Positions 20,858 to 29,126 of a DNA stretch of 64,000 nt are shown here, one piece after another. The notes beneath the pieces are model-generated. The model was not told the origin of the DNA, did no database searches, and was given only the letters and a program-made list of their open reading frames with translations. Each line of letters begins with the position of its first letter. Within the stretch, counting starts at the first letter, position 1. This DNA is from a virus. Position numbers and translations under genes: made by a program. The stretch is taken from positions 32,001 to 96,000 of the IMG/VR virus record IMGVR_UViG_3300045049_000339; one strand, written 5' to 3'.

Positions 20858-20931
20858 GTGGTCAGGTACACAGGCACTACTAAGAGGCGTGTCGCTGTCT
20901 GTTTCGGAACGGCATTGATCGCCTGACCACC
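20858..20931 (+). ncRNA. structured RNA motif, copy A (three-way junction)
   Basis: Closing stem GTGGTCAGG/CCTGACCAC; shares junction and loop sequences with 22350-22432. Confidence 0.5.
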
Positions 20932-21043
20932 ATTGACAACTCCATACCCCTCGACCCCCGTTCTCCCACCGTCGTGCAGGAATCGCTCCCCCCACGACGG
21001 GACGCAACGGCCGCCGCACCGGCCGAAGGTAGAGAACGGGCAC

Positions 21044-21138
21044 GGTTCCACCCTTGCTCCTGCGCGGTCCTCGCAGCGCGCAGTGACTTGAGGGAGTCTC
21101 CAGGTGACCTAGCACCGGGATGTAGCAAGGGTGGAACC
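21044..21138 (+). ncRNA. multi-branched structured RNA
   Basis: Perfect 15-bp closing stem GGTTCCACCCTTGCT/AGCAAGGGTGGAACC enclosing three hairpins. Confidence 0.5.
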
Positions 21139-21140
21139 AC

Positions 21141-21213
21141 GGATCTGTAGCTCAGTTGGTAGAGCAGCCGACTTTTAATCGGCGGGTCGCCGGTTCAAGC
21201 CCGGCCGGGTCCA
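21141..21213 (+). tRNA. tRNA-Lys(TTT)
   Basis: Canonical cloverleaf, loop CTTTTAA. Confidence 0.92.
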
Positions 21214-21306
21214 CGCGCCGGTGCCTCTGGCACCAGGAAGAGCGGTTGCCCACCGTGCGCAAAGGGTAGCTCCTTCACCGTCCCCCATGCCGGTGGAGGA
21301 GCACAA

Positions 21307-21379
21307 GGGGCCTTAGCTCAGACGGAAGAGCGTGCGCCTGAAAAGCGCGAGGTCGTTGGTTCGACTCCAACAGGTCCCA
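21307..21379 (+). tRNA. tRNA-Phe(GAA)
   Basis: Canonical cloverleaf, loop CTGAAAA. Confidence 0.92.
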
Positions 21380-21453
21380 CGGTGTTCCCGGTCGTTCCCA
21401 AGGCCGCCGGGAACCCCTGCCTTCGACGGAACTCCAGGACCGGAGAAGGTGGA

Positions 21454-21527
21454 CGGCGCGTAGCTCAGCCTGGTAGAGCACTGGTCTGATAAACCAGCGG
21501 TCGATGGTTCAAATCCATCCGCGTCGA
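21454..21527 (+). tRNA. tRNA-Ile(GAT)
   Basis: Canonical cloverleaf, loop CTGATAA. Confidence 0.92.
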
Positions 21528-21528
21528 C

Positions 21529-21557
21529 TAGACAGACACTCCCAAGTCTGCTACAGT
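21529..21557 (+). promoter_or_regulatory. sigma70/HrdB-type promoter
   Basis: TAGACA-N17-TACAGT directly upstream of the 21584 gene. Confidence 0.65.
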
Positions 21558-21583
21558 AAGTAGCAGTTGAGGAAAGAGGAAGC

Positions 21584-22336
21584 ATGAAGCTCCACCAGCT
21601 CATTGCGAAGCAGGGCAAGGTCGCCGCACGCGTGACCAACGCCGCCAGCGTCATCCACAAGGCGTCGCAGAAGCCCGCTCTGTTCACGGGCGTCAGCATC
21701 ACCTACGAGCCGCTGGCCACCAACGAGAACGACGTCTCCGCGCAGAAGCCGCCGGAGGGCAACTCCGTCCAGCTCTACGCGACCAAGGAGCTGGGCAAGC
21801 TCCGCGAGCTGCTCACCGAGTTGTACGACGTCAACGCGACGCGCGACTGGTCGAACATGGTCGCCCGTGGCACCGTCAAGGTCGGTGACAAGGTCATCCT
21901 CTCGGACGTGCCGGTCCCGTTCCTGCTGTTCCTCAAGCTGGAGCTGAACCGCCTCCGCACCGAGTTCTCCGCCATCCCGGTCCTGGACCCCTCCAAGGAC
22001 TGGAAGGTGGACACGGAGAACGGCGGCTACAAGACCGAGACCACCTGGCAGCACAGCACCCGGCGCGTCAAGAAGGTGCTGGAGCGCTCCCCGGCCACGG
22101 ACAAGCACCAGGCCGTGACGGAGGTCTACGAGGAGGAAGTGCCGGTCGCGAGGAAGGAGACCACCAACTTCTCCGGCGCCCTGAGCCGCGTGGACCGCGA
22201 TGCCCTGATCCGCCAGGTCGACCTGCTCTTCGACGCCGTCACCGAGGCGGTCGAGGAGGCCAACACGGTCGAGGTCGTGGACATGTCCGTCGGCAAGCCC
22301 ATCTTCGACTTCCTTCTGGCCCCGCTGACCCGCTAG
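21584..22336 (+). CDS. uncharacterised conserved protein (widespread actinobacterial family, possibly DUF7873)
   Basis: GAGGA RBS; KLHQLIA, QKPALFTG, DVNATRDWSN, DVPVPFLLFL, PVLDP, ATDKH, FSGAL and EEAN motifs recalled from a conserved Streptomyces family (family name needs confirmation). Confidence 0.85.
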   Translation: MKLHQLIAKQGKVAARVTNAASVIHKASQKPALFTGVSITYEPLATNENDVSAQKPPEGNSVQLYATKELGKLRELLTELYDVNATRDWSNMVARGTVKVGDKVILSDVPVPFLLFLKLELNRLRTEFSAIPVLDPSKDWKVDTENGGYKTETTWQHSTRRVKKVLERSPATDKHQAVTEVYEEEVPVARKETTNFSGALSRVDRDALIRQVDLLFDAVTEAVEEANTVEVVDMSVGKPIFDFLLAPLTR

Positions 22337-22349
22337 GGTCTCAAGAACT

Positions 22350-22432
22350 GGTGCTCCGGGTGCACGGGTCCTAGTAAGACGGATCGGCCCTTGTTTGTCC
22401 AGCGGTGGGGTTCACTGACCGCCTGGAGCACC
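22350..22432 (+). ncRNA. structured RNA motif, copy B (three-way junction)
   Basis: Closing stem GGTGCTCCGGG/CCTGGAGCACC; conserved TRCAC, TASTAAGA and AYTGAYCG with copy A. Confidence 0.5.
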
Positions 22433-22469
22433 TCCACAGACTCCCGGTTGAGCGACCGGGTCTGCACCC

Positions 22470-22712
22470 GCAGGGTGCGGAAAGCTAACAACTGAATATC
22501 AACATCAGCCGCCGTCGCAACGGTGGCATCAAGCTGAAGCTCTCGCTCAAGCTGAAGCGTCTCGGCAAGGCGTTGATCGAAGTGCGCTGTCCCATCAGGA
22601 GACGTCGGTTCGAATCCGACTCAGGGGACTACGATCCCTGGTGGTGTAGTGGAAGCATTGCCTGGTTTCTCAAATCAAGGCAGCGCCCACCGTGCAACGT
22701 CAGACCGCAGAA
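22470..22712 (+). ncRNA. putative ncRNA with hexamer-repeat tract and circularly permuted tRNA-like domain
   Basis: Phased hexamers at 22490-22554; T arm GTCGG-TTCGAAT-CCGAC, looped acceptor CAGGGGA-CTACGA-TCCCTG, then D arm GTGT-AGTGGAA-GCAT, closed by GCGCTGTC/GGCAGCGC (22584-22686). Ends are approximate. Confidence 0.75.
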
Positions 22713-22716
22713 TGAC

Positions 22717-22790
22717 ATTGGAATAGCGCAGCTTGGCAGCGCGTCAGTCTCTGGTACTGAAGATCGTCGGTTCAAATCCGACTTCCAAAA
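22717..22790 (+). tRNA. tRNA-Gln(CTG)
   Basis: Anticodon arm TCAGT-CTCTGGT-ACTGA, T loop TTCAAAT, acceptor (A)TTGGAA/TTCCAA(A); Pro-like D arm. Confidence 0.8.
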
Positions 22791-22834
22791 ACATTCTATG
22801 GGTGGTCCCCGGAGGTTACCGGGGGCCACCTCCC

Positions 22835-22908
22835 GGTTGCGTAGCTCAGATGGATAGAGCGCCCGCCTTCTAAGCGGGAGGTCGCAGGTTCAAGTCCTGC
22901 CGCTTCCA
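22835..22908 (+). tRNA. tRNA-Arg(TCT) with two U:U mismatches in the acceptor stem
   Basis: Loop CTTCTAA, canonical D and T arms; acceptor GGTTGCG/CGCTTCC. Confidence 0.8.
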
Positions 22909-22935
22909 CGCAAGACATCCTACTAGGAGAAGATC

Positions 22936-23037
22936 ATGTTGAAGAAGTTCATCGTCGCCCTGCGTACCGTTTGTGGGTACTGTGGCTACAACACCAGCTC
23001 CTCGACCTGCCCGAACTGCGGCAACCCGGTCGGCTGA
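22936..23037 (+). CDS. 33-aa zinc-ribbon micro-protein (not in the ORF track)
   Basis: AGGAGA RBS; MLKKFIVALRTVCGYCGYNTSSSTCPNCGNPVG with two CxxC pairs. Confidence 0.7.
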   Translation: MLKKFIVALRTVCGYCGYNTSSSTCPNCGNPVG

Positions 23038-23204
23038 TCACAGATGAACACCGCTGGTATAGCCTACGCGAAGATCGTTCTGTACAGGGCGGATGGAGGC
23101 GGAAACGGAGACGTCGTCGTCTGGTGTATCAAACACAGCGGGCCGAAAACTCAGTGCGGCTGCCCGTGATAGGCTGAAGCCGGTTCTTACACCGTGCAGG
23201 GCAT

Positions 23205-23244
23205 CACGAAGACCCCGTCAGCATTGCTGACGGGGTTTTTCGTG
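23205..23244. terminator. intrinsic terminator
   Basis: CACGAAGACCCCGTCAGCA-T-TGCTGACGGGGTTTTTCGTG hairpin with T tract. Confidence 0.8.
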
Positions 23245-23256
23245 CTAGTATTCAGT

Positions 23257-23592
23257 ATGAGTACGAACGAGGAACTTGAGCGGGACGTGGCATGGCTGGA
23301 GACCTGGGTCGAGCAGCACCCGGAGACCCGCGCGGCCAAGCGCATCGAGGCCGTCCTGACCGCCATCAAGGCCGCCACGGACGACGCTCTGCCGGTCGAG
23401 GAGGGCGTCCCGGTCAAGGACACCGCCGCGAAGTACAAGCACCTCGCAGACCTCGTCCAGAGCTGGATTCCGGCCGGGTCCATCTGGGAGAAGCAGCACA
23501 ACACCGAAGAGCTGGTTGCCAATTACATCTGGCACCTGTACCACAGTCACACCCTCGGATGCCCGGAGTGTTTTGGTGGACGAACCAACTGA
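23257..23592 (+). CDS. hypothetical protein (possibly leaderless)
   Basis: High GC3; TGCTAGTATT -10-like element just before the ATG. Confidence 0.7.
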   Translation: MSTNEELERDVAWLETWVEQHPETRAAKRIEAVLTAIKAATDDALPVEEGVPVKDTAAKYKHLADLVQSWIPAGSIWEKQHNTEELVANYIWHLYHSHTLGCPECFGGRTN

Positions 23593-26639: not shown

Positions 26640-26668
26640 TTGCGCACCGCCGTCGGTGCGCGTAGTGT
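26640..26668 (+). promoter_or_regulatory. promoter for the Y RNA array and Ro60
   Basis: TTGCGC-N17-TAGTGT ending a few nt before the first RNA unit. Confidence 0.6.
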
Positions 26669-26671
26669 TCT

Positions 26672-26831
26672 GGGTGTCGGAGGAACCGGGGTAAGGAACA
26701 CGGTTACTTCATTTGACTGGATATCAAAAGGTTGTGGGTTCGAGTCCCACCGGCTCCACTTGTGGGGCTGTAGCTCAATCGGTAGAGAAAACGTGCCCGA
26801 GTTCACTTTGATATCGGTTCCCTCGACACCC
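26672..26831 (+). ncRNA. Y RNA (YrlA-like) unit 1, permuted tRNA domain
   Basis: Terminal stem GGGTGTCG..GGAACC/GGTTCC..CGACACCC; GGGGTA..CGGTTACTTC and TTTGATATC motifs; order anticodon hairpin (TTTGA-CTGGATA-TCAAA), T arm, looped acceptor, D arm. Confidence 0.85.
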
Positions 26832-26839
26832 ACAGACTT

Positions 26840-26995
26840 CCTGTCAGGGGTACAGGCAACGGCTACTTCGCTTCGAAATGCGGGTATCTGTGCAAACAGA
26901 GTGCGGGTTCGAATCCCGTCCGGCTCTTCGCTGAGTCGGTAGACGAATTGGCAAAGTCACCTACGTATCCGATGCCGACTTAGACATCTGACAGG
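26840..26995 (+). ncRNA. Y RNA (YrlA-like) unit 2, class II (Ser-like) permuted tRNA domain
   Basis: CCTGTCAG/CTGACAGG stem; same conserved motifs; CGA-containing loop, long variable arm CTGT-GCAA-ACAG, T arm, looped acceptor, D arm. Confidence 0.85.
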
Positions 26996-27007
26996 GCTAA
27001 CTTCATA

Positions 27008-27149
27008 TCTGTCCGGGGTACAGGCTGCGGTTACTTCACCTGTTAAGTGAGAGGTCGCAGGTTCGAATCCTGTCGTGGGGTGATAAGCCCCATGTAGCTC
27101 AGTTTGGGAGAGCGCTAACGTTCCCGCTGCCGCTTCGATATCGGACAGA
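27008..27149 (+). ncRNA. Y RNA (YrlA-like) unit 3, Asn(GTT)-like permuted tRNA domain
   Basis: TCTGTCCG/CGGACAGA stem; TCAC-CTGTTAA-GTGA anticodon arm; GCAGG-TTCGAAT-CCTGT; looped acceptor; GCTC..GAGC D arm. Confidence 0.87.
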
Positions 27150-27164
27150 ACACACAAACTTCAT

Positions 27165-27305
27165 AGCTGCCTGGGGTAAAGACAACGGTTACTTCCATGC
27201 GGAGGAGGTAGCGCAGGTTCGAATCCTGCCGGGGGCCTACGGGCTCCTGTCGTCTAGCGGCCCAGGACGCCTACGTTTCCGTTATCGCTTTGATATCAGG
27301 CAGCT
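27165..27305 (+). ncRNA. Y RNA (YrlA-like) unit 4, Glu-like permuted tRNA body
   Basis: AGCTGCCTG/CAGGCAGCT stem; D arm GTCTAGCGGCCCAGGAC typical of tRNA-Glu; hairpin loop ATGCGGA. Confidence 0.85.
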
Positions 27306-27306
27306 T

Positions 27307-27400
27307 GCAGAACCCATCACCGGGGTACTGCTCACGGTTACTTCACCCTTCAAAGATGAAAAAACACCGTGAGCGCTCTGAAATCGGTGGTGGGTTCTGC
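27307..27400 (+). ncRNA. Y RNA unit 5, no tRNA domain
   Basis: GCAGAACCCATCACC/GGTGGTGGGTTCTGC stem with GGGGTA..CGGTTACTTC and CTGAAATC motifs but only a short loop. Confidence 0.75.
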
Positions 27401-27443
27401 TTAATGGCAAGCCCAGTGCCATCAGGAAAAGGAGGAACAGACG

Positions 27444-29126
27444 ATGGCCAAGTTTAACCAGAAGACCCGTACCTGGGAGAACCAGGGAGGTTCGGCCTTT
27501 CCCGCCGCAGGAACGAAGCGGCAGACCACCACGACCACGAACCACACCGGCCGTGCCGTGTGGAACCTGGACGACAAGACCAACCTGTTCTTCCGCGCCA
27601 CGTCCGCCTTCGCCGGTCAGGACACGTACTACGAGAAAGGCGCCAAGCGCGACGCCGAGGCCATCGCCTTGGTCCGAAAGCTCGCTATCGGCGACTGGGA
27701 CTGGACGGCGAAGTTCCTCGTCTGGCTGCGCGCCGAGGGCAACATGCGCACCGCGCCGGTCATGCTGGCTGTCGAGGCAGTTCGTGCACGCCTGGAGAAG
27801 AAGCTGCACCCGGCTGCCGGTGAGATGTCTCACCGTGCGCTCATCGCGGCTGTTCTCCAGCGCGCGGATGAGCCGGGCGAGATGCTCGCCTACTACGAGA
27901 ACGTCGTCGGCCGCACCATGCCGAAGGCGATCAAGCGTGGTATCGGTGACGCGGCCAAGCGCATGTACAACGAGCGCAACTTCCTGCGGTACGACAGTTC
28001 GTCCAAGGCCATCCGTTTCGGCGGCGTCGCCGAGATGGCTCAGATGCCGAAGACGCACGGCTGGCAGTCCGACCTGATCACCTACGCCATTGGTGAGCAG
28101 CACCACCGTGAGCAGGACATCCCTGACACGTTGGCGGCACTTCGTGCACGCAATGAGCTGAACAAGATGGACGCCAGCGACCGTCACGTTTTCGCGAAGA
28201 GCGCACTGGGCGGCCACATCATCAACCGCACCAAGCTGGACCTGGCCATGGCCGGGCAGTGGGAGTGGTTCATGAGTTGGCTCGGTGATGCGAAGGGTGC
28301 CAAGGCCATCACGACGAAGGAGAAGTGGACGTTCGCCGCCCAGCGCATGGGCATCATGGCGGTCGTCCGCAACCTCCGGAACTTCGACGAGGCCGGTCTC
28401 AAGACGGGCGACAGCATCGTCACCGAGATCAGTGGTCGGCTCACGAACGAGGAGCAGATCGCGAAGTCCCGCATGTTCCCGTTCCGGTTCTTCACGGCGC
28501 ACTTGCAGCTCAAGTCCGTCACGTGGGCGGCCGGTCTGGAGGTGGCGCTTCAGCACTCGCTCCAGAACCTTCCGGAGCTGCCGGGCCGGACGCTGATCCT
28601 CGTCGACACCTCGGGGTCGATGCAGCAGAAGCTCTCGGCCAAGTCCGAGATGTCCTACGCCCAGGCCGCCGCACTGTTCGGCTGTGCCCTGAAGATCAAG
28701 AACCCGGACGGGGTCAACCTGTGGGGGTTCGCCGACGGGCAGTTCGAGGCGCAGGCCACCACGGGTCACAGCGTTCTGCGCTGTGCCGAGGAGTTCTGCC
28801 GCCAGAACGGCCTGGTCGGTCACGGAACGCAGATGGAGGCGGCCGTCCGTGCCACGTACGCGGGGCACGACCGAGTCATCATCATCTCCGACATGCAGGC
28901 GTTCCCGACCGGCGGTTACAGCCGGTACGGGTACAGCTACATGACCGGTGACGTCGCTGGGGCTGTTCCGGCGCACATCCCGGTATACGGTTTCAACCTG
29001 GCCAGCGGCTCCACCACACCGCTGGGCAAGGGCAACCGGCACAGCCTTGGTGGCCTCTCGGATGTGACGTTCAAGCTGATCCCTCAGCTTGAGAAGGTCG
29101 GCCGGGGTTCGTGGCCCTGGGAGTAA
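27444..29126 (+). CDS. rsr: Ro60/Rsr ortholog (TROVE + vWA domains)
   Basis: TYYE, WLRAEGNMRTAP, QRADEPGE, PKAIKRGI, MAVVRNLRNFDEAG, SRMFPFRF, LILVDTSGSM, IIISDMQ; adjacent Y RNA-like repeats. Confidence 0.92.
   Translation: MAKFNQKTRTWENQGGSAFPAAGTKRQTTTTTNHTGRAVWNLDDKTNLFFRATSAFAGQDTYYEKGAKRDAEAIALVRKLAIGDWDWTAKFLVWLRAEGNMRTAPVMLAVEAVRARLEKKLHPAAGEMSHRALIAAVLQRADEPGEMLAYYENVVGRTMPKAIKRGIGDAAKRMYNERNFLRYDSSSKAIRFGGVAEMAQMPKTHGWQSDLITYAIGEQHHREQDIPDTLAALRARNELNKMDASDRHVFAKSALGGHIINRTKLDLAMAGQWEWFMSWLGDAKGAKAITTKEKWTFAAQRMGIMAVVRNLRNFDEAGLKTGDSIVTEISGRLTNEEQIAKSRMFPFRFFTAHLQLKSVTWAAGLEVALQHSLQNLPELPGRTLILVDTSGSMQQKLSAKSEMSYAQAAALFGCALKIKNPDGVNLWGFADGQFEAQATTGHSVLRCAEEFCRQNGLVGHGTQMEAAVRATYAGHDRVIIISDMQAFPTGGYSRYGYSYMTGDVAGAVPAHIPVYGFNLASGSTTPLGKGNRHSLGGLSDVTFKLIPQLEKVGRGSWPWE

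What the first reader, a model, noticed from the sequence alone, without database searches (positions are those of the whole stretch)
21529..22712. Candidate new RNP system: uncharacterised protein plus an ncRNA with hexamer repeats and a permuted tRNA mimic
Seen: a promoter (TAGACA-N17-TACAGT) drives a 250-aa protein of unknown function. The non-coding stretch behind it has about 8 phased hexamers (AACTGA ATATCA ACATCA [hairpin] GCATCA AGCTGA AGCTCT CGCTCA AGCTGA, 22490-22554). It also has a tRNA-like domain in permuted order: T arm (GTCGG-TTCGAAT-CCGAC), acceptor stem sealed by a loop (CAGGGGA-CTACGA-TCCCTG), then D arm (GTGT-AGTGGAA-GCAT). The anticodon stem is replaced by a long helix (CAGG/CCTG, GCGCTGTC/GGCAGCGC). 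Known: this T-acceptor-D order is the hallmark of YrlA Y RNAs, which are tethered to Ro60. This RNA lacks the GGGGTA/CGGTTACTTC/GATATC motifs of the Y RNAs 4 kb downstream. Inference: the hexamer tract is a binding track for an oligomer of the adjacent protein (one repeat per subunit, as for TRAP or Hfq). That would give a Ro-independent protein/tRNA-mimic complex, perhaps a decoy or adaptor against tRNA-targeting defences.
Basis: partly seen in the sequence, partly recalled or inferred. Interest (0 to 1): 0.9.

Follow-up and report, generated by a model that had tools for sequence, protein, structure and literature searches.

The report
DUF7873 protein with tRNA-mimic RNA
A phage gene of unknown function (DUF7873) is followed by a folded RNA made of six-base repeats and a back-to-front tRNA look-alike; the same gene-plus-RNA pair follows nearly every relative of the gene in phages and bacteria, mostly without Ro60, so it probably marks an undescribed RNA-protein particle.

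Summary
The ORF at 21584-22336 is a full-length DUF7873 protein. Behind it, at about 22437-22708, lies a structured RNA with phased hexamers and one circularly permuted tRNA-like domain (TLD).

This RNA belongs to a large family. A covariance model built only from other phages matches the window at full length (42.8 bits, E 1.8e-9). It also finds the RNA just downstream of the gene, on the same strand, in:
- 75 of 80 IMG/VR loci;
- 80 of 80 bacterial-genome loci, mostly Streptomyces;
- 7 of 7 cultured phages tested.

In the hand-built 19-sequence seed, 33 of 37 base pairs carry compensatory changes. An RNA-only pattern search returned 10 loci, all with the gene upstream. No other neighbouring gene is conserved.

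The RNA is not in Rfam 15, and no searched paper names DUF7873. It lacks this phage's own Ro-type Y RNA boxes, and four phage records at least 90% complete that carry the pair have no TROVE gene.

The window copy is a reduced, one-headed variant with a sealed acceptor stem. That the protein binds the hexamers is inferred, not shown. Support is the co-conservation, hexamers also at the gene's own RBS across the family, and a predicted homodimer. The anti-defence role is speculation.

This scan has met the same pair before on other DNA: 46 notes in at least 39 genomes.

The parts
21529..21557 (+). sigma-70-like promoter TAGACA-N17-TACAGT (TG-extended -10)
   Evidence: Consensus scan: the only site in 21000-23300; 0.2 expected from shuffles. 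Function not shown.
21584..22336 (+). DUF7873 protein gene (250 aa)
   Evidence: Pfam PF25283, E 1.5e-67, profile positions 3-242 of 244. AF2 model with pLDDT 89.6. Homodimer prediction: ipSAE 0.72 against best control 0.00.
22349..22432 (+). Y-shaped structured insert between the stop codon and the family RNA. Not conserved in the family; a second copy lies at 20858-20935.
   Evidence: Sequence. MFE fold, (z -1.15, not significant). Absent from other family members.
22443..22460 (+). 5' hairpin CCCGG/CCGGG with loop UUGAGCGA (22448-22455). The loop is complementary to UCGCUCAA (22543-22550) in tract 2, giving a proposed long-range pairing P1.
   Evidence: Sequence. The GAGCR / YGCUC motif pair recurs across the family. 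Covariation at the single variable position is not significant by my count.
22462..22480 (+). second 5' hairpin (8 bp, loop GCA)
   Evidence: A hairpin sits in the same place in L001, L009, L010, L002 and the Streptomyces copies.
22482..22507 (+). hexamer tract 1 (AAGCUA.. AACUGA AUAUCA ACAUCA)
   Evidence: Family tract 1 has 4-5 units of RRYUNA.
22508..22527 (+). plain hairpin GCCGCCGU-CGCA-ACGGUGGC. It stands where two-headed members carry tRNA-like domain 1.
   Evidence: The same replacement is seen in L002 and in Streptomyces L101, L105, L109 and L163.
22526..22555 (+). hexamer tract 2 with the family's conserved core CUCUCGCUC
   Evidence: The core YGCUC is conserved across the family.
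22567..22708 (+). Family core matched by model R1. In order: P_y 22568-75 with 22695-702; AUCGA loop 22576-80; P_z 22584-91 with 22679-86; stem UCAGG 22595-99 with CCUGG 22661-65; T arm 22604-20; sealed 7-bp acceptor 22621-41; D arm 22644-58; tract 3 UUUCUCAAAUCAA 22666-78.
   Evidence: cmsearch: 42.8 bits, E 1.8e-9, model 1-150 of 150. The window was not in the seed.
22717..22790 (+). tRNA-Gln(CUG) directly abutting the RNA. It is the likely 3' processing boundary.
   Evidence: ARAGORN; Rfam. L002 has the same layout.

Best explanation
The gene at 21584-22336 and the RNA at about 22437-22708 are this phage's copy of a widespread, undescribed two-part module: a DUF7873 protein plus a Y-RNA-like tRNA-mimic RNA.

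What is shown:
- The RNA is a conserved structured RNA with covarying helices.
- It is genetically locked to the DUF7873 gene, lying immediately downstream on the same strand, in phages of at least seven host genera and in many bacterial chromosomes.
- It needs neither Ro60 nor Ro-type boxes.
- The window holds the reduced, one-headed form with a sealed acceptor stem.

What is inferred:
- Gene and RNA are transcribed together from the promoter at 21529. The tRNA-Gln at 22717 sets the 3' end.
- A DUF7873 homodimer binds the single-stranded RRYUNA hexamer tracts and/or the AUCGA internal loop. Through similar hexamers at its own RBS it may also limit its own synthesis.
- The anticodon-less tRNA head is displayed as a handle for proteins that recognise the tRNA elbow and acceptor arm. 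The particle would then act as an adaptor or decoy in tRNA or RNA metabolism, in the way YrlA works with Ro60.

Which tRNA-binding factor is engaged is unknown.
For: Protein family.

Co-conservation:
- A full-length R1 match lies downstream of the gene on the same strand in 75/80 IMG/VR loci. Two of the misses are cut by contig ends.
- 80/80 bacterial loci.
- Cultured phages Mimi, NiceHouse, Fryberger, Pam2, RHph_TM30, KpLz-2_45 (partial match) and K479.
- Reciprocal test: an RNA-only pattern search gave 10 loci, all with DUF7873 upstream.
- No other conserved neighbour gene.

Structure:
- Seed alignment: 88.7% of cells paired against 59.3% in shuffles; 33/37 pairs with double changes; slid controls 36-50%.
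- 115 distinct sequences: 92.7% against 53.2%.

Window membership: 42.8 bits, E 1.8e-9, full length. The window's Ro-adjacent Y RNAs match only model positions 34-104.

Hexamers:
- YUNA spaced 6 nt apart: 172 against 23 expected.
- In the -60..-1 region of the genes: 23 against 3.2 +/- 1.8, 0 of 500 shuffles as high.

Ro independence:
- TROVE absent from 4/4 records at least 90% complete.
- Ro boxes absent.
- No YrlA hit on the window copy.

Dimer: ipSAE 0.72 against best control 0.00. Three runs agree in at least 99% of contacts, and partner pLDDT is at least 88. The mark was reached by 20/30 known homodimers and 1/23 monomers.

Precedent for tRNA-mimic RNAs tethered to a protein: PMC4201824.
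Against: - No transcript data. No RNA run holds this DNA, so expression, RNA ends and processing are unknown.
- Protein-RNA contact is inferred from gene order only.
- The protein has no recognisable RNA-binding fold. The best structural match is a protein of unknown function (3kdq, Z 10.1, rmsd 7.2 over 147 residues).
- The window's own 5'UTR shows only one hexamer unit.
- Two IMG/VR loci (L018, L019) have the gene but no detectable RNA.
- The window copy's hexamers are more degenerate (AUCA) than the family consensus.
Confidence: 0.6

Rival explanations
1. The RNA acts alone, as a stable tRNA mimic that soaks up or recruits tRNA-binding host factors. DUF7873 is only co-transcribed: functionally linked, or perhaps needed for RNA biogenesis, but not a stable partner.
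For: The tRNA-like core is the most conserved part. No RNA-binding fold is recognised in the protein. Many phage copies keep a 7-bp acceptor, a conserved discriminator base and NCCA, which are features read by host enzymes.
Against: The coupling of gene and RNA is near-absolute over very distant hosts, with no other conserved neighbour. Hexamers recur at the gene's own RBS, which is most simply read as the protein recognising them.
Confidence: 0.17
2. It is a cis-acting 3'UTR or processing element. A tRNA-like structure would stabilise the DUF7873 mRNA, or guide RNase P/RNase E processing of the polycistronic tRNA-cluster transcript, with no function in trans.
For: It always lies immediately 3' of the gene and often inside tRNA clusters. 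In the window it abuts tRNA-Gln.
Against: A stabiliser would not need about 300 nt with conserved internal loops (AUCGA / UUAAACG), three hexamer tracts and often two heads. Of 80 bacterial loci, only 18 have a tRNA within 2.5 kb, yet all keep the RNA.
Confidence: 0.12
3. It is a sixth, diverged YrlA-type Y RNA that serves the phage's own Ro60 (27444-29126).
For: It has the same permuted T-acceptor-D layout. Rfam YrlA hits a family member (L001) at 32.9 bits, which is within the range of this phage's true Y RNAs at 20-35 bits. Ro60 lies 4.7 kb away.
Against: The candidate gives no YrlA hit at E up to 10 and has none of the three boxes shared by the Ro-adjacent units. The family tracks DUF7873, not TROVE, which is absent from 4/4 records at least 90% complete.
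Confidence: 0.05
4. It is a tmRNA-like device. The hexamer tract would be a start-less message read by ribosomes after the tRNA-like domain enters.
For: A tRNA-like domain sits next to a 6-nt (two-codon) periodic tract. NCCA follows the acceptor strand in about 40% of phage copies.
Against: About a fifth of the excess steps are 5 or 7 nt, which breaks any reading frame. The acceptor is sealed by a 7-nt loop here and by 6-8 nt loops in 66 of 77 bacterial copies. ARAGORN finds no tmRNA in the window; Rfam's permuted-tmRNA model gives no hit on the candidate, only a sub-threshold match in the Ro60-adjacent Y RNA array (24.2 bits against gathering 47).
Confidence: 0.03

Closest known systems
YrlA-class bacterial and phage Y RNAs with Ro60/Rsr (Rfam RF02553; Chen et al. 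2014, PMC4201824)
   Same: Both have a circularly permuted tRNA-like domain (T arm, acceptor-like stem, D arm) in which the anticodon arm is replaced by a long closing helix carrying a conserved internal motif. Both are encoded next to a partner protein gene. Sealed and RNase P-openable acceptor forms both exist; M. smegmatis YrlA is cut by RNase P and receives CCA.
   Different: The partner gene is DUF7873, not a TROVE protein. Ro-binding boxes are absent, and the score is below Rfam's YrlA threshold. There are extra hexamer tracts. Most members carry two heads in one RNA of about 330-400 nt. The RNA lies 3' of the gene. The family occurs in genomes without Ro60, and in this phage it sits beside a complete Ro60 / five-Y-RNA operon.
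Two-piece (circularly permuted) tmRNA
   Same: The gene order is T arm, acceptor 3' strand, (NCCA), spacer, acceptor 5' strand. A tRNA-like domain is joined to a single-stranded tract.
   Different: No tag reading frame, since the hexamer phase slips. A true D stem is present. There is no pseudoknot series. The acceptor is sealed in the window copy. Neither ARAGORN nor Rfam's tmRNA models detect it.
TRAP with the trp leader (11 NAG triplets spaced by 2-3 nt), and other repeat-reading RNA-binding oligomers
   Same: Short repeats at a fixed 5-7 nt spacing lie in single-stranded RNA. Similar repeats sit at the RBS of a regulated gene, which suggests autoregulation.
   Different: The repeat (RRYUNA) is different and the protein fold is unrelated. 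The prediction run here tested two copies only, so a dimer is supported and a ring was not tested. Binding has not been tested.
Large structured phage ncRNAs found near tRNA genes (GOLLD, ROOL)
   Same: They are phage-borne, often embedded in tRNA clusters, and of unknown function. L025 carries a GOLLD RNA 1.1 kb upstream of its DUF7873 gene.
   Different: No sequence or structure match. GOLLD and ROOL have no dedicated adjacent protein gene and no permuted tRNA domains.

Membership tests
YrlA / Y RNA (Rfam RF02553) | Permuted tRNA-like domain: T arm, acceptor-like stem, D arm | tested here: met
   Sequence at 22604-22658. Aligned as such by R1.
YrlA / Y RNA (Rfam RF02553) | Score at or above the family's gathering threshold (69 bits) | tested here: not met
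   No YrlA hit at E up to 10 in 22300-22760. Caveat: the window's own Ro-adjacent Y RNAs also reach only 20-35 bits.
YrlA / Y RNA (Rfam RF02553) | Ro60-binding motif on the closing helix: GNCGAAN0-1G in published YrlAs, or the GGGGTA / CGGTTACTTC / GATATC boxes of this phage's Y RNAs | tested here: not met
   The three boxes are absent from 22337-22716 and present 4-5 times in 26688-27340. The family's AUCGA loop resembles NCGAA only in part.
YrlA / Y RNA (Rfam RF02553) | Encoded next to, and co-occurring with, a Ro60/TROVE gene | tested here: not met
   The candidate lies 4.7 kb from rsr, behind DUF7873. TROVE is absent from 4/4 records at least 90% complete that carry the pair.
YrlA / Y RNA (Rfam RF02553) | Bound by Ro60 in vivo | not testable with these tools
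   Needs immunoprecipitation.
   42.8 bits, E 1.8e-9, model 1-150 of 150. The window was not in the seed.
   The gene ends at 22336 and the R1 match starts at 22567. The family median distance is 204 nt.
   7/8 in-phase units in the window. Family-wide 6-nt spacing: 172 against 23 expected.
   The window has one. Domain 1 is replaced by a hairpin at 22508-22527, as in L002 and Streptomyces L101, L105, L109 and L163. This is a recurrent variant, not an exclusion.
Pfam DUF7873 (PF25283) | Whole-protein score above the curated cut-off (27 bits), full-length match | tested here: met
   228.3 bits, profile positions 3-242 of 244.
tmRNA (standard or permuted) | Tag reading frame with a resume codon, an aminoacylatable open acceptor end, and detection by tmRNA models | tested here: not met
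   ARAGORN finds none. No tmRNA-model hit on the candidate. The phase slips. The acceptor is sealed.

The most novel reading that the evidence does not exclude
DUF7873 and its RNA form a new class of ribonucleoprotein, unrelated to Ro60. A symmetric protein dimer would read phased hexamer tracts, also at its own RBS for feedback, and display one or two anticodon-less tRNA bodies. The particle would capture or deliver enzymes that act on the tRNA elbow or acceptor end. In phages it would sit inside tRNA clusters to protect or service the phage tRNA supply, for example against host toxins that attack tRNA.
Probability: 0.4. Interest if true: 0.9.

Novelty: new variant of a known kind. Interest (0 to 1): 0.8.

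Why it matters
Protein-tethered tRNA-mimic RNAs are so far known in bacteria only as Ro60 Y RNAs. Here the same RNA design is coupled to an unrelated, uncharacterised protein. The pair occurs in at least 559 bacterial species, many of them Streptomyces, and in phages of Actinobacteria, Proteobacteria and Cyanobacteria. If it is a true RNP, tRNA mimicry would be a more general way of building RNA-protein machines than is now thought.

It would also give a function to a Pfam DUF and to a 300-400 nt stretch that genome annotations leave blank or cover with small spurious ORFs.

This phage carries both systems within 5 kb, which makes a natural test of whether they are redundant. Cultured carriers exist (SEA-PHAGES Gordonia, Arthrobacter and Rhodococcus phages; Vibrio and Rhizobium phages; Streptomyces strains), so the idea can be tested directly.

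Tried and rejected
The contigs of the closest protein relatives (P0002-P0007, 54-78% identity) could not be fetched, so no close relative of the window's one-headed RNA was available for variant-specific covariation.
- Close-relative searches found nothing: megablast and blastn against phages; an exact motif and a single-protein scan in IMG/VR.
- The metagenome scan gave only one truncated locus, L180.
- Rfam at gathering and permissive thresholds found no family on the window element or on 13 relatives.
- No RNA holder was listed for this DNA.
- Structure searches gave no functional lead: PDB Foldseek, VIA wide and BFVD; the PDB sequence profile; NCBIfam, PADLOC and PHROGs; the ESM Atlas.
- The MFE fold of the single sequence does not recover the tRNA-like fold. 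Only comparative data do.
- The proposed pairing of the 5' loop GAGCR with the tract-2 core YGCUC is 8 bp in the window. At its one variable position, 19 of 24 combinations are compatible against about 17.6 expected, so it is not supported as covariation. I keep it only as a proposal.
- ORF clustering around the bacterial loci was uninformative because high-GC sequence yields spurious frames.
- The tmRNA, attP-fragment and permuted-true-tRNA readings were considered and dropped. There is no anticodon loop, both acceptor strands covary, and the element occurs in lytic jumbo phages.
Full report
**Setting.** The window is bases 32001-96000 of a 107.7-kb single-contig virus record. DNA runs from soil and rhizosphere metagenomes hold this stretch. 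It is GC-rich. The finding lies in a module packed with tRNA genes: tRNA-Lys, Phe and Ile sit just upstream, and Gln and Arg just downstream. It is 4.7 kb from a Ro60/TROVE gene at 27444-29126. That gene is preceded by four to five Y-RNA-like units at 26668-27400.

**The observation.**
- The promoter-like site TAGACA-N17-TACAGT (21529-21557) is the only one the scan finds in 21000-23300, against 0.2 expected.
- The ORF at 21584-22336 encodes 250 aa.
- The eight hexamers occupy 22490-22507 and 22526-22555, around an 18-20 nt hairpin. Seven of the eight fit NNNUNA in one phase. No other 48-nt stretch of the whole window has more than five such units.
- The permuted tRNA-like domain reads as T arm 22604-22620, a 7-bp acceptor hairpin 22621-41 with loop ACUACGA, and D arm 22644-58.
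- It is closed by UCAGG/CCUGG and by GCGCUGUC/GGCAGCGC.
- The three boxes of the Ro-adjacent Y RNAs are absent from the element.

One correction: the protein is a full-length member of Pfam DUF7873 (E 1.5e-67).

**A conserved gene-RNA pair.** DUF7873 homologs occur in 68 deposited phage genomes, of Arthrobacter, Gordonia, Rhodococcus, Rhizobium, Klebsiella/Serratia, Vibrio and cyanobacteria. They also occur in 239 or more IMG/VR stretches and in at least 559 bacterial species genomes.

Reading the DNA behind the gene in 80 IMG/VR loci showed the same non-coding layout again and again, although ARAGORN calls no tRNA there. In order it is:
- one or two 5' hairpins;
- a tract of 4-5 hexamers (RRYUNA);
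- a permuted tRNA-like domain (TLD1);
- a second tract with a conserved YGCUC core;
- a helix (P_y), an AUCGA internal loop, and a helix (P_z);
- a second permuted tRNA-like domain (TLD2) that keeps a short anticodon-stem analogue;
- two more hexamers;
- the return strands, with a UUAAACG loop;
- in some loci (read by eye), a terminal hairpin with a GGAUA-containing loop.

I built covariance model R1 (150 positions, 37 pairs) from 19 of these loci, leaving the window out. On the seed, 88.7% of cells pair against 59.3% in shuffles. 33 of 37 pairs show changes on both sides, and sliding one strand drops pairing to 36-50%. On 115 distinct matched sequences the figures are 92.7% against 53.2%, with all 37 pairs covarying. 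That second alignment is fitted to the model.

R1 finds a full-length match just downstream of the gene, on the same strand:
- in 75 of 80 IMG/VR loci (two misses are cut by contig ends, one is partial, and L018/L019 have none);
- in 80 of 80 bacterial loci;
- in all seven cultured phages tested, with a partial match in Klebsiella phage KpLz-2_45.

In the other direction, an RNA-only 21-nt pattern returned ten IMG/VR loci. All ten have DUF7873 immediately upstream. Clustering of neighbouring ORFs found no other conserved gene. The module therefore consists of the gene and the RNA.

**The window copy.** R1 matches 22567-22708 over its whole length (42.8 bits, E 1.8e-9), the best hit in the window. 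The Ro-adjacent Y RNAs match only the tRNA-like core, model positions 34-104.

The 5' half (22437-22566) has the family's parts in order: a hairpin with loop UUGAGCGA, a second hairpin, tract 1, then tract 2 with CUCUCGCUC. A plain hairpin (22508-22527) stands where TLD1 would be. The same one-headed form occurs in IMG/VR locus L002 and in several Streptomyces chromosomes (L101, L105, L109, L163), next to two-headed Streptomyces copies (L120, L125, L174).

The extra Y-shaped piece at 22349-22432 is not part of the family. A second copy of it lies at 20858-20935.

**Relation to Y RNAs.** The design (T arm, acceptor, D arm, closed by a long helix) is that of YrlA (PMC4201824). Rfam's YrlA model hits a family member at 32.9 bits. 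That is the same range as this phage's genuine Y RNAs (20-35 bits), and all are below the 69-bit threshold.

But the defining links to Ro60 fail:
- no Ro boxes;
- no YrlA hit on the window copy;
- the RNA follows DUF7873 rather than rsr;
- four phage records at least 90% complete that carry the pair have no TROVE match.

This phage, like Rhizobium phage RHph_TM30, carries both systems. That argues they are not redundant.

**Features that bear on mechanism.**
- *Periodicity.* YUNA motifs spaced 6 nt apart occur 172 times against 23 expected, and at 12 nt 59 against 18. Spacings of 5 and 7 nt are also somewhat enriched, so the tract does not keep a reading frame.
- *Hexamers at the RBS.* The same repeats lie in the 60 nt before DUF7873 start codons: 23 pairs against 3.2 +/- 1.8, with 0 of 500 shuffles as high. 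This is most simply read as the protein recognising them and feeding back on its own translation. The window's own leader has only one unit.
- *Acceptor end.* In phage copies the 7-bp acceptor 3' strand is followed by NCCA in 22/53 (TLD1) and 22/56 (TLD2) cases, against 1.6% by chance. The discriminator is conserved (A in TLD1, U in TLD2) and TLD2 has G1-C72 in 89%. M. smegmatis YrlA, with such a stem, is cut by RNase P and receives CCA (PMC4201824), so many phage copies are probably opened. In the window, and in 66 of 77 bacterial copies, the acceptor is sealed by a 6-8 nt loop without CCA. Opening is therefore not predicted here.
- *Protein.* It folds with confidence (pLDDT 89.6) into long helices plus beta-hairpins and has no informative structural relative. 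A homodimer is predicted with ipSAE 0.72 against a best control of 0.00. The runs agree in at least 99% of contacts, and partner pLDDT is at least 88. The mark was reached by 20/30 known homodimers and 1/23 monomers. This supports pairing but does not show it.

**Reading.** What is shown is a conserved, structured RNA genetically locked to DUF7873 and independent of Ro60. What is inferred is that the two form a particle in which the dimer holds the hexamer tracts and/or the AUCGA loop and presents the tRNA-like head(s) to tRNA-recognising factors. I put about 0.6 on that. But nothing here tests it, and the many chromosomal Streptomyces copies suggest a more general role in RNA metabolism.

The rivals (RNA acting alone, a cis 3'UTR element, a sixth Y RNA for Ro60, a tmRNA-like device) are weighed in their own sections.

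**Novelty.** Rfam 15 has no such family. No paper in the searched library mentions DUF7873 or describes such an RNA. The library is incomplete.

This scan has already met the pair on other DNA: 46 notes in at least 39 genomes. Its follow-up reports reached the same reading. That is agreement between similar analyses, not independent evidence.

What this window adds:
- a within-genome contrast with a complete Ro60 / five-Y-RNA operon;
- the one-headed, sealed-acceptor variant;
- the NCCA and discriminator statistics;
- the RBS hexamer statistics;
- the dimer prediction.

Noticed in passing
window 26668-29126: A Ro60/TROVE gene (27444-29126) is preceded by four tRNA-like Y RNA units plus a fifth shorter unit. 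Each carries GGGGTA, CGGTTACTTC and GATATC boxes. All score below Rfam's YrlA threshold (20-35 bits).
   Followed up: partly
window 26682-26759: ARAGORN's 'tRNA-SeC(tca)' and Rfam's weak tRNA hit (31.2 bits) lie inside Y RNA unit 1. This is probably a false tRNA call on a permuted tRNA-like unit.
   Followed up: no
window 20858-20935 and 22349-22432: Two copies of a Y-shaped element with different closing stems (GGUCAGG/CCUGACC and GGUGCUCC/GGAGCACC). They share inner motifs CUAnUAAGAnG and UGUUU. The element is not part of the DUF7873 RNA family, and its function is unknown.
   Followed up: partly
L025:1436-1920: A GOLLD RNA (Rfam RF02032, 154 bits) lies 1.1 kb upstream of the DUF7873 gene in this IMG/VR phage, inside the same tRNA cluster.
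   Followed up: no
L001, L009, L011, L032, L033, L038, L043, L058, L067; L093 (phage Mimi); L098 (phage NiceHouse): The tRNA nearest to the DUF7873 gene is very often tRNA-Lys (CUU or UUU), and sometimes one sits on each side. Several of these phages are related to each other, so the number of independent cases is smaller. Unexplained.
   Followed up: no
L018, L019: Two IMG/VR loci have a DUF7873 gene but no R1 match anywhere in the 6.7-kb locus. They are the only clear exceptions to the gene-RNA coupling.
   Followed up: no
L094:3220-3333 (Gordonia phage Fryberger gene 123); L093:3639-3848 (Arthrobacter phage Mimi gene 145): Small 'hypothetical protein' ORFs are annotated in the non-coding stretch behind the DUF7873 gene in deposited phage genomes. 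Neither overlaps the R1 core match itself (L094 3606-3782; L093 3431-3600). They are probably not genes.
   Followed up: no
L001-L080, -60..-1 of the DUF7873 start codons: Hexamer repeats of the same RRYUNA type sit directly before the Shine-Dalgarno sequence of the gene in many family members (23 against 3.2 expected pairs at 6-nt spacing). This suggests autoregulation.
   Followed up: yes
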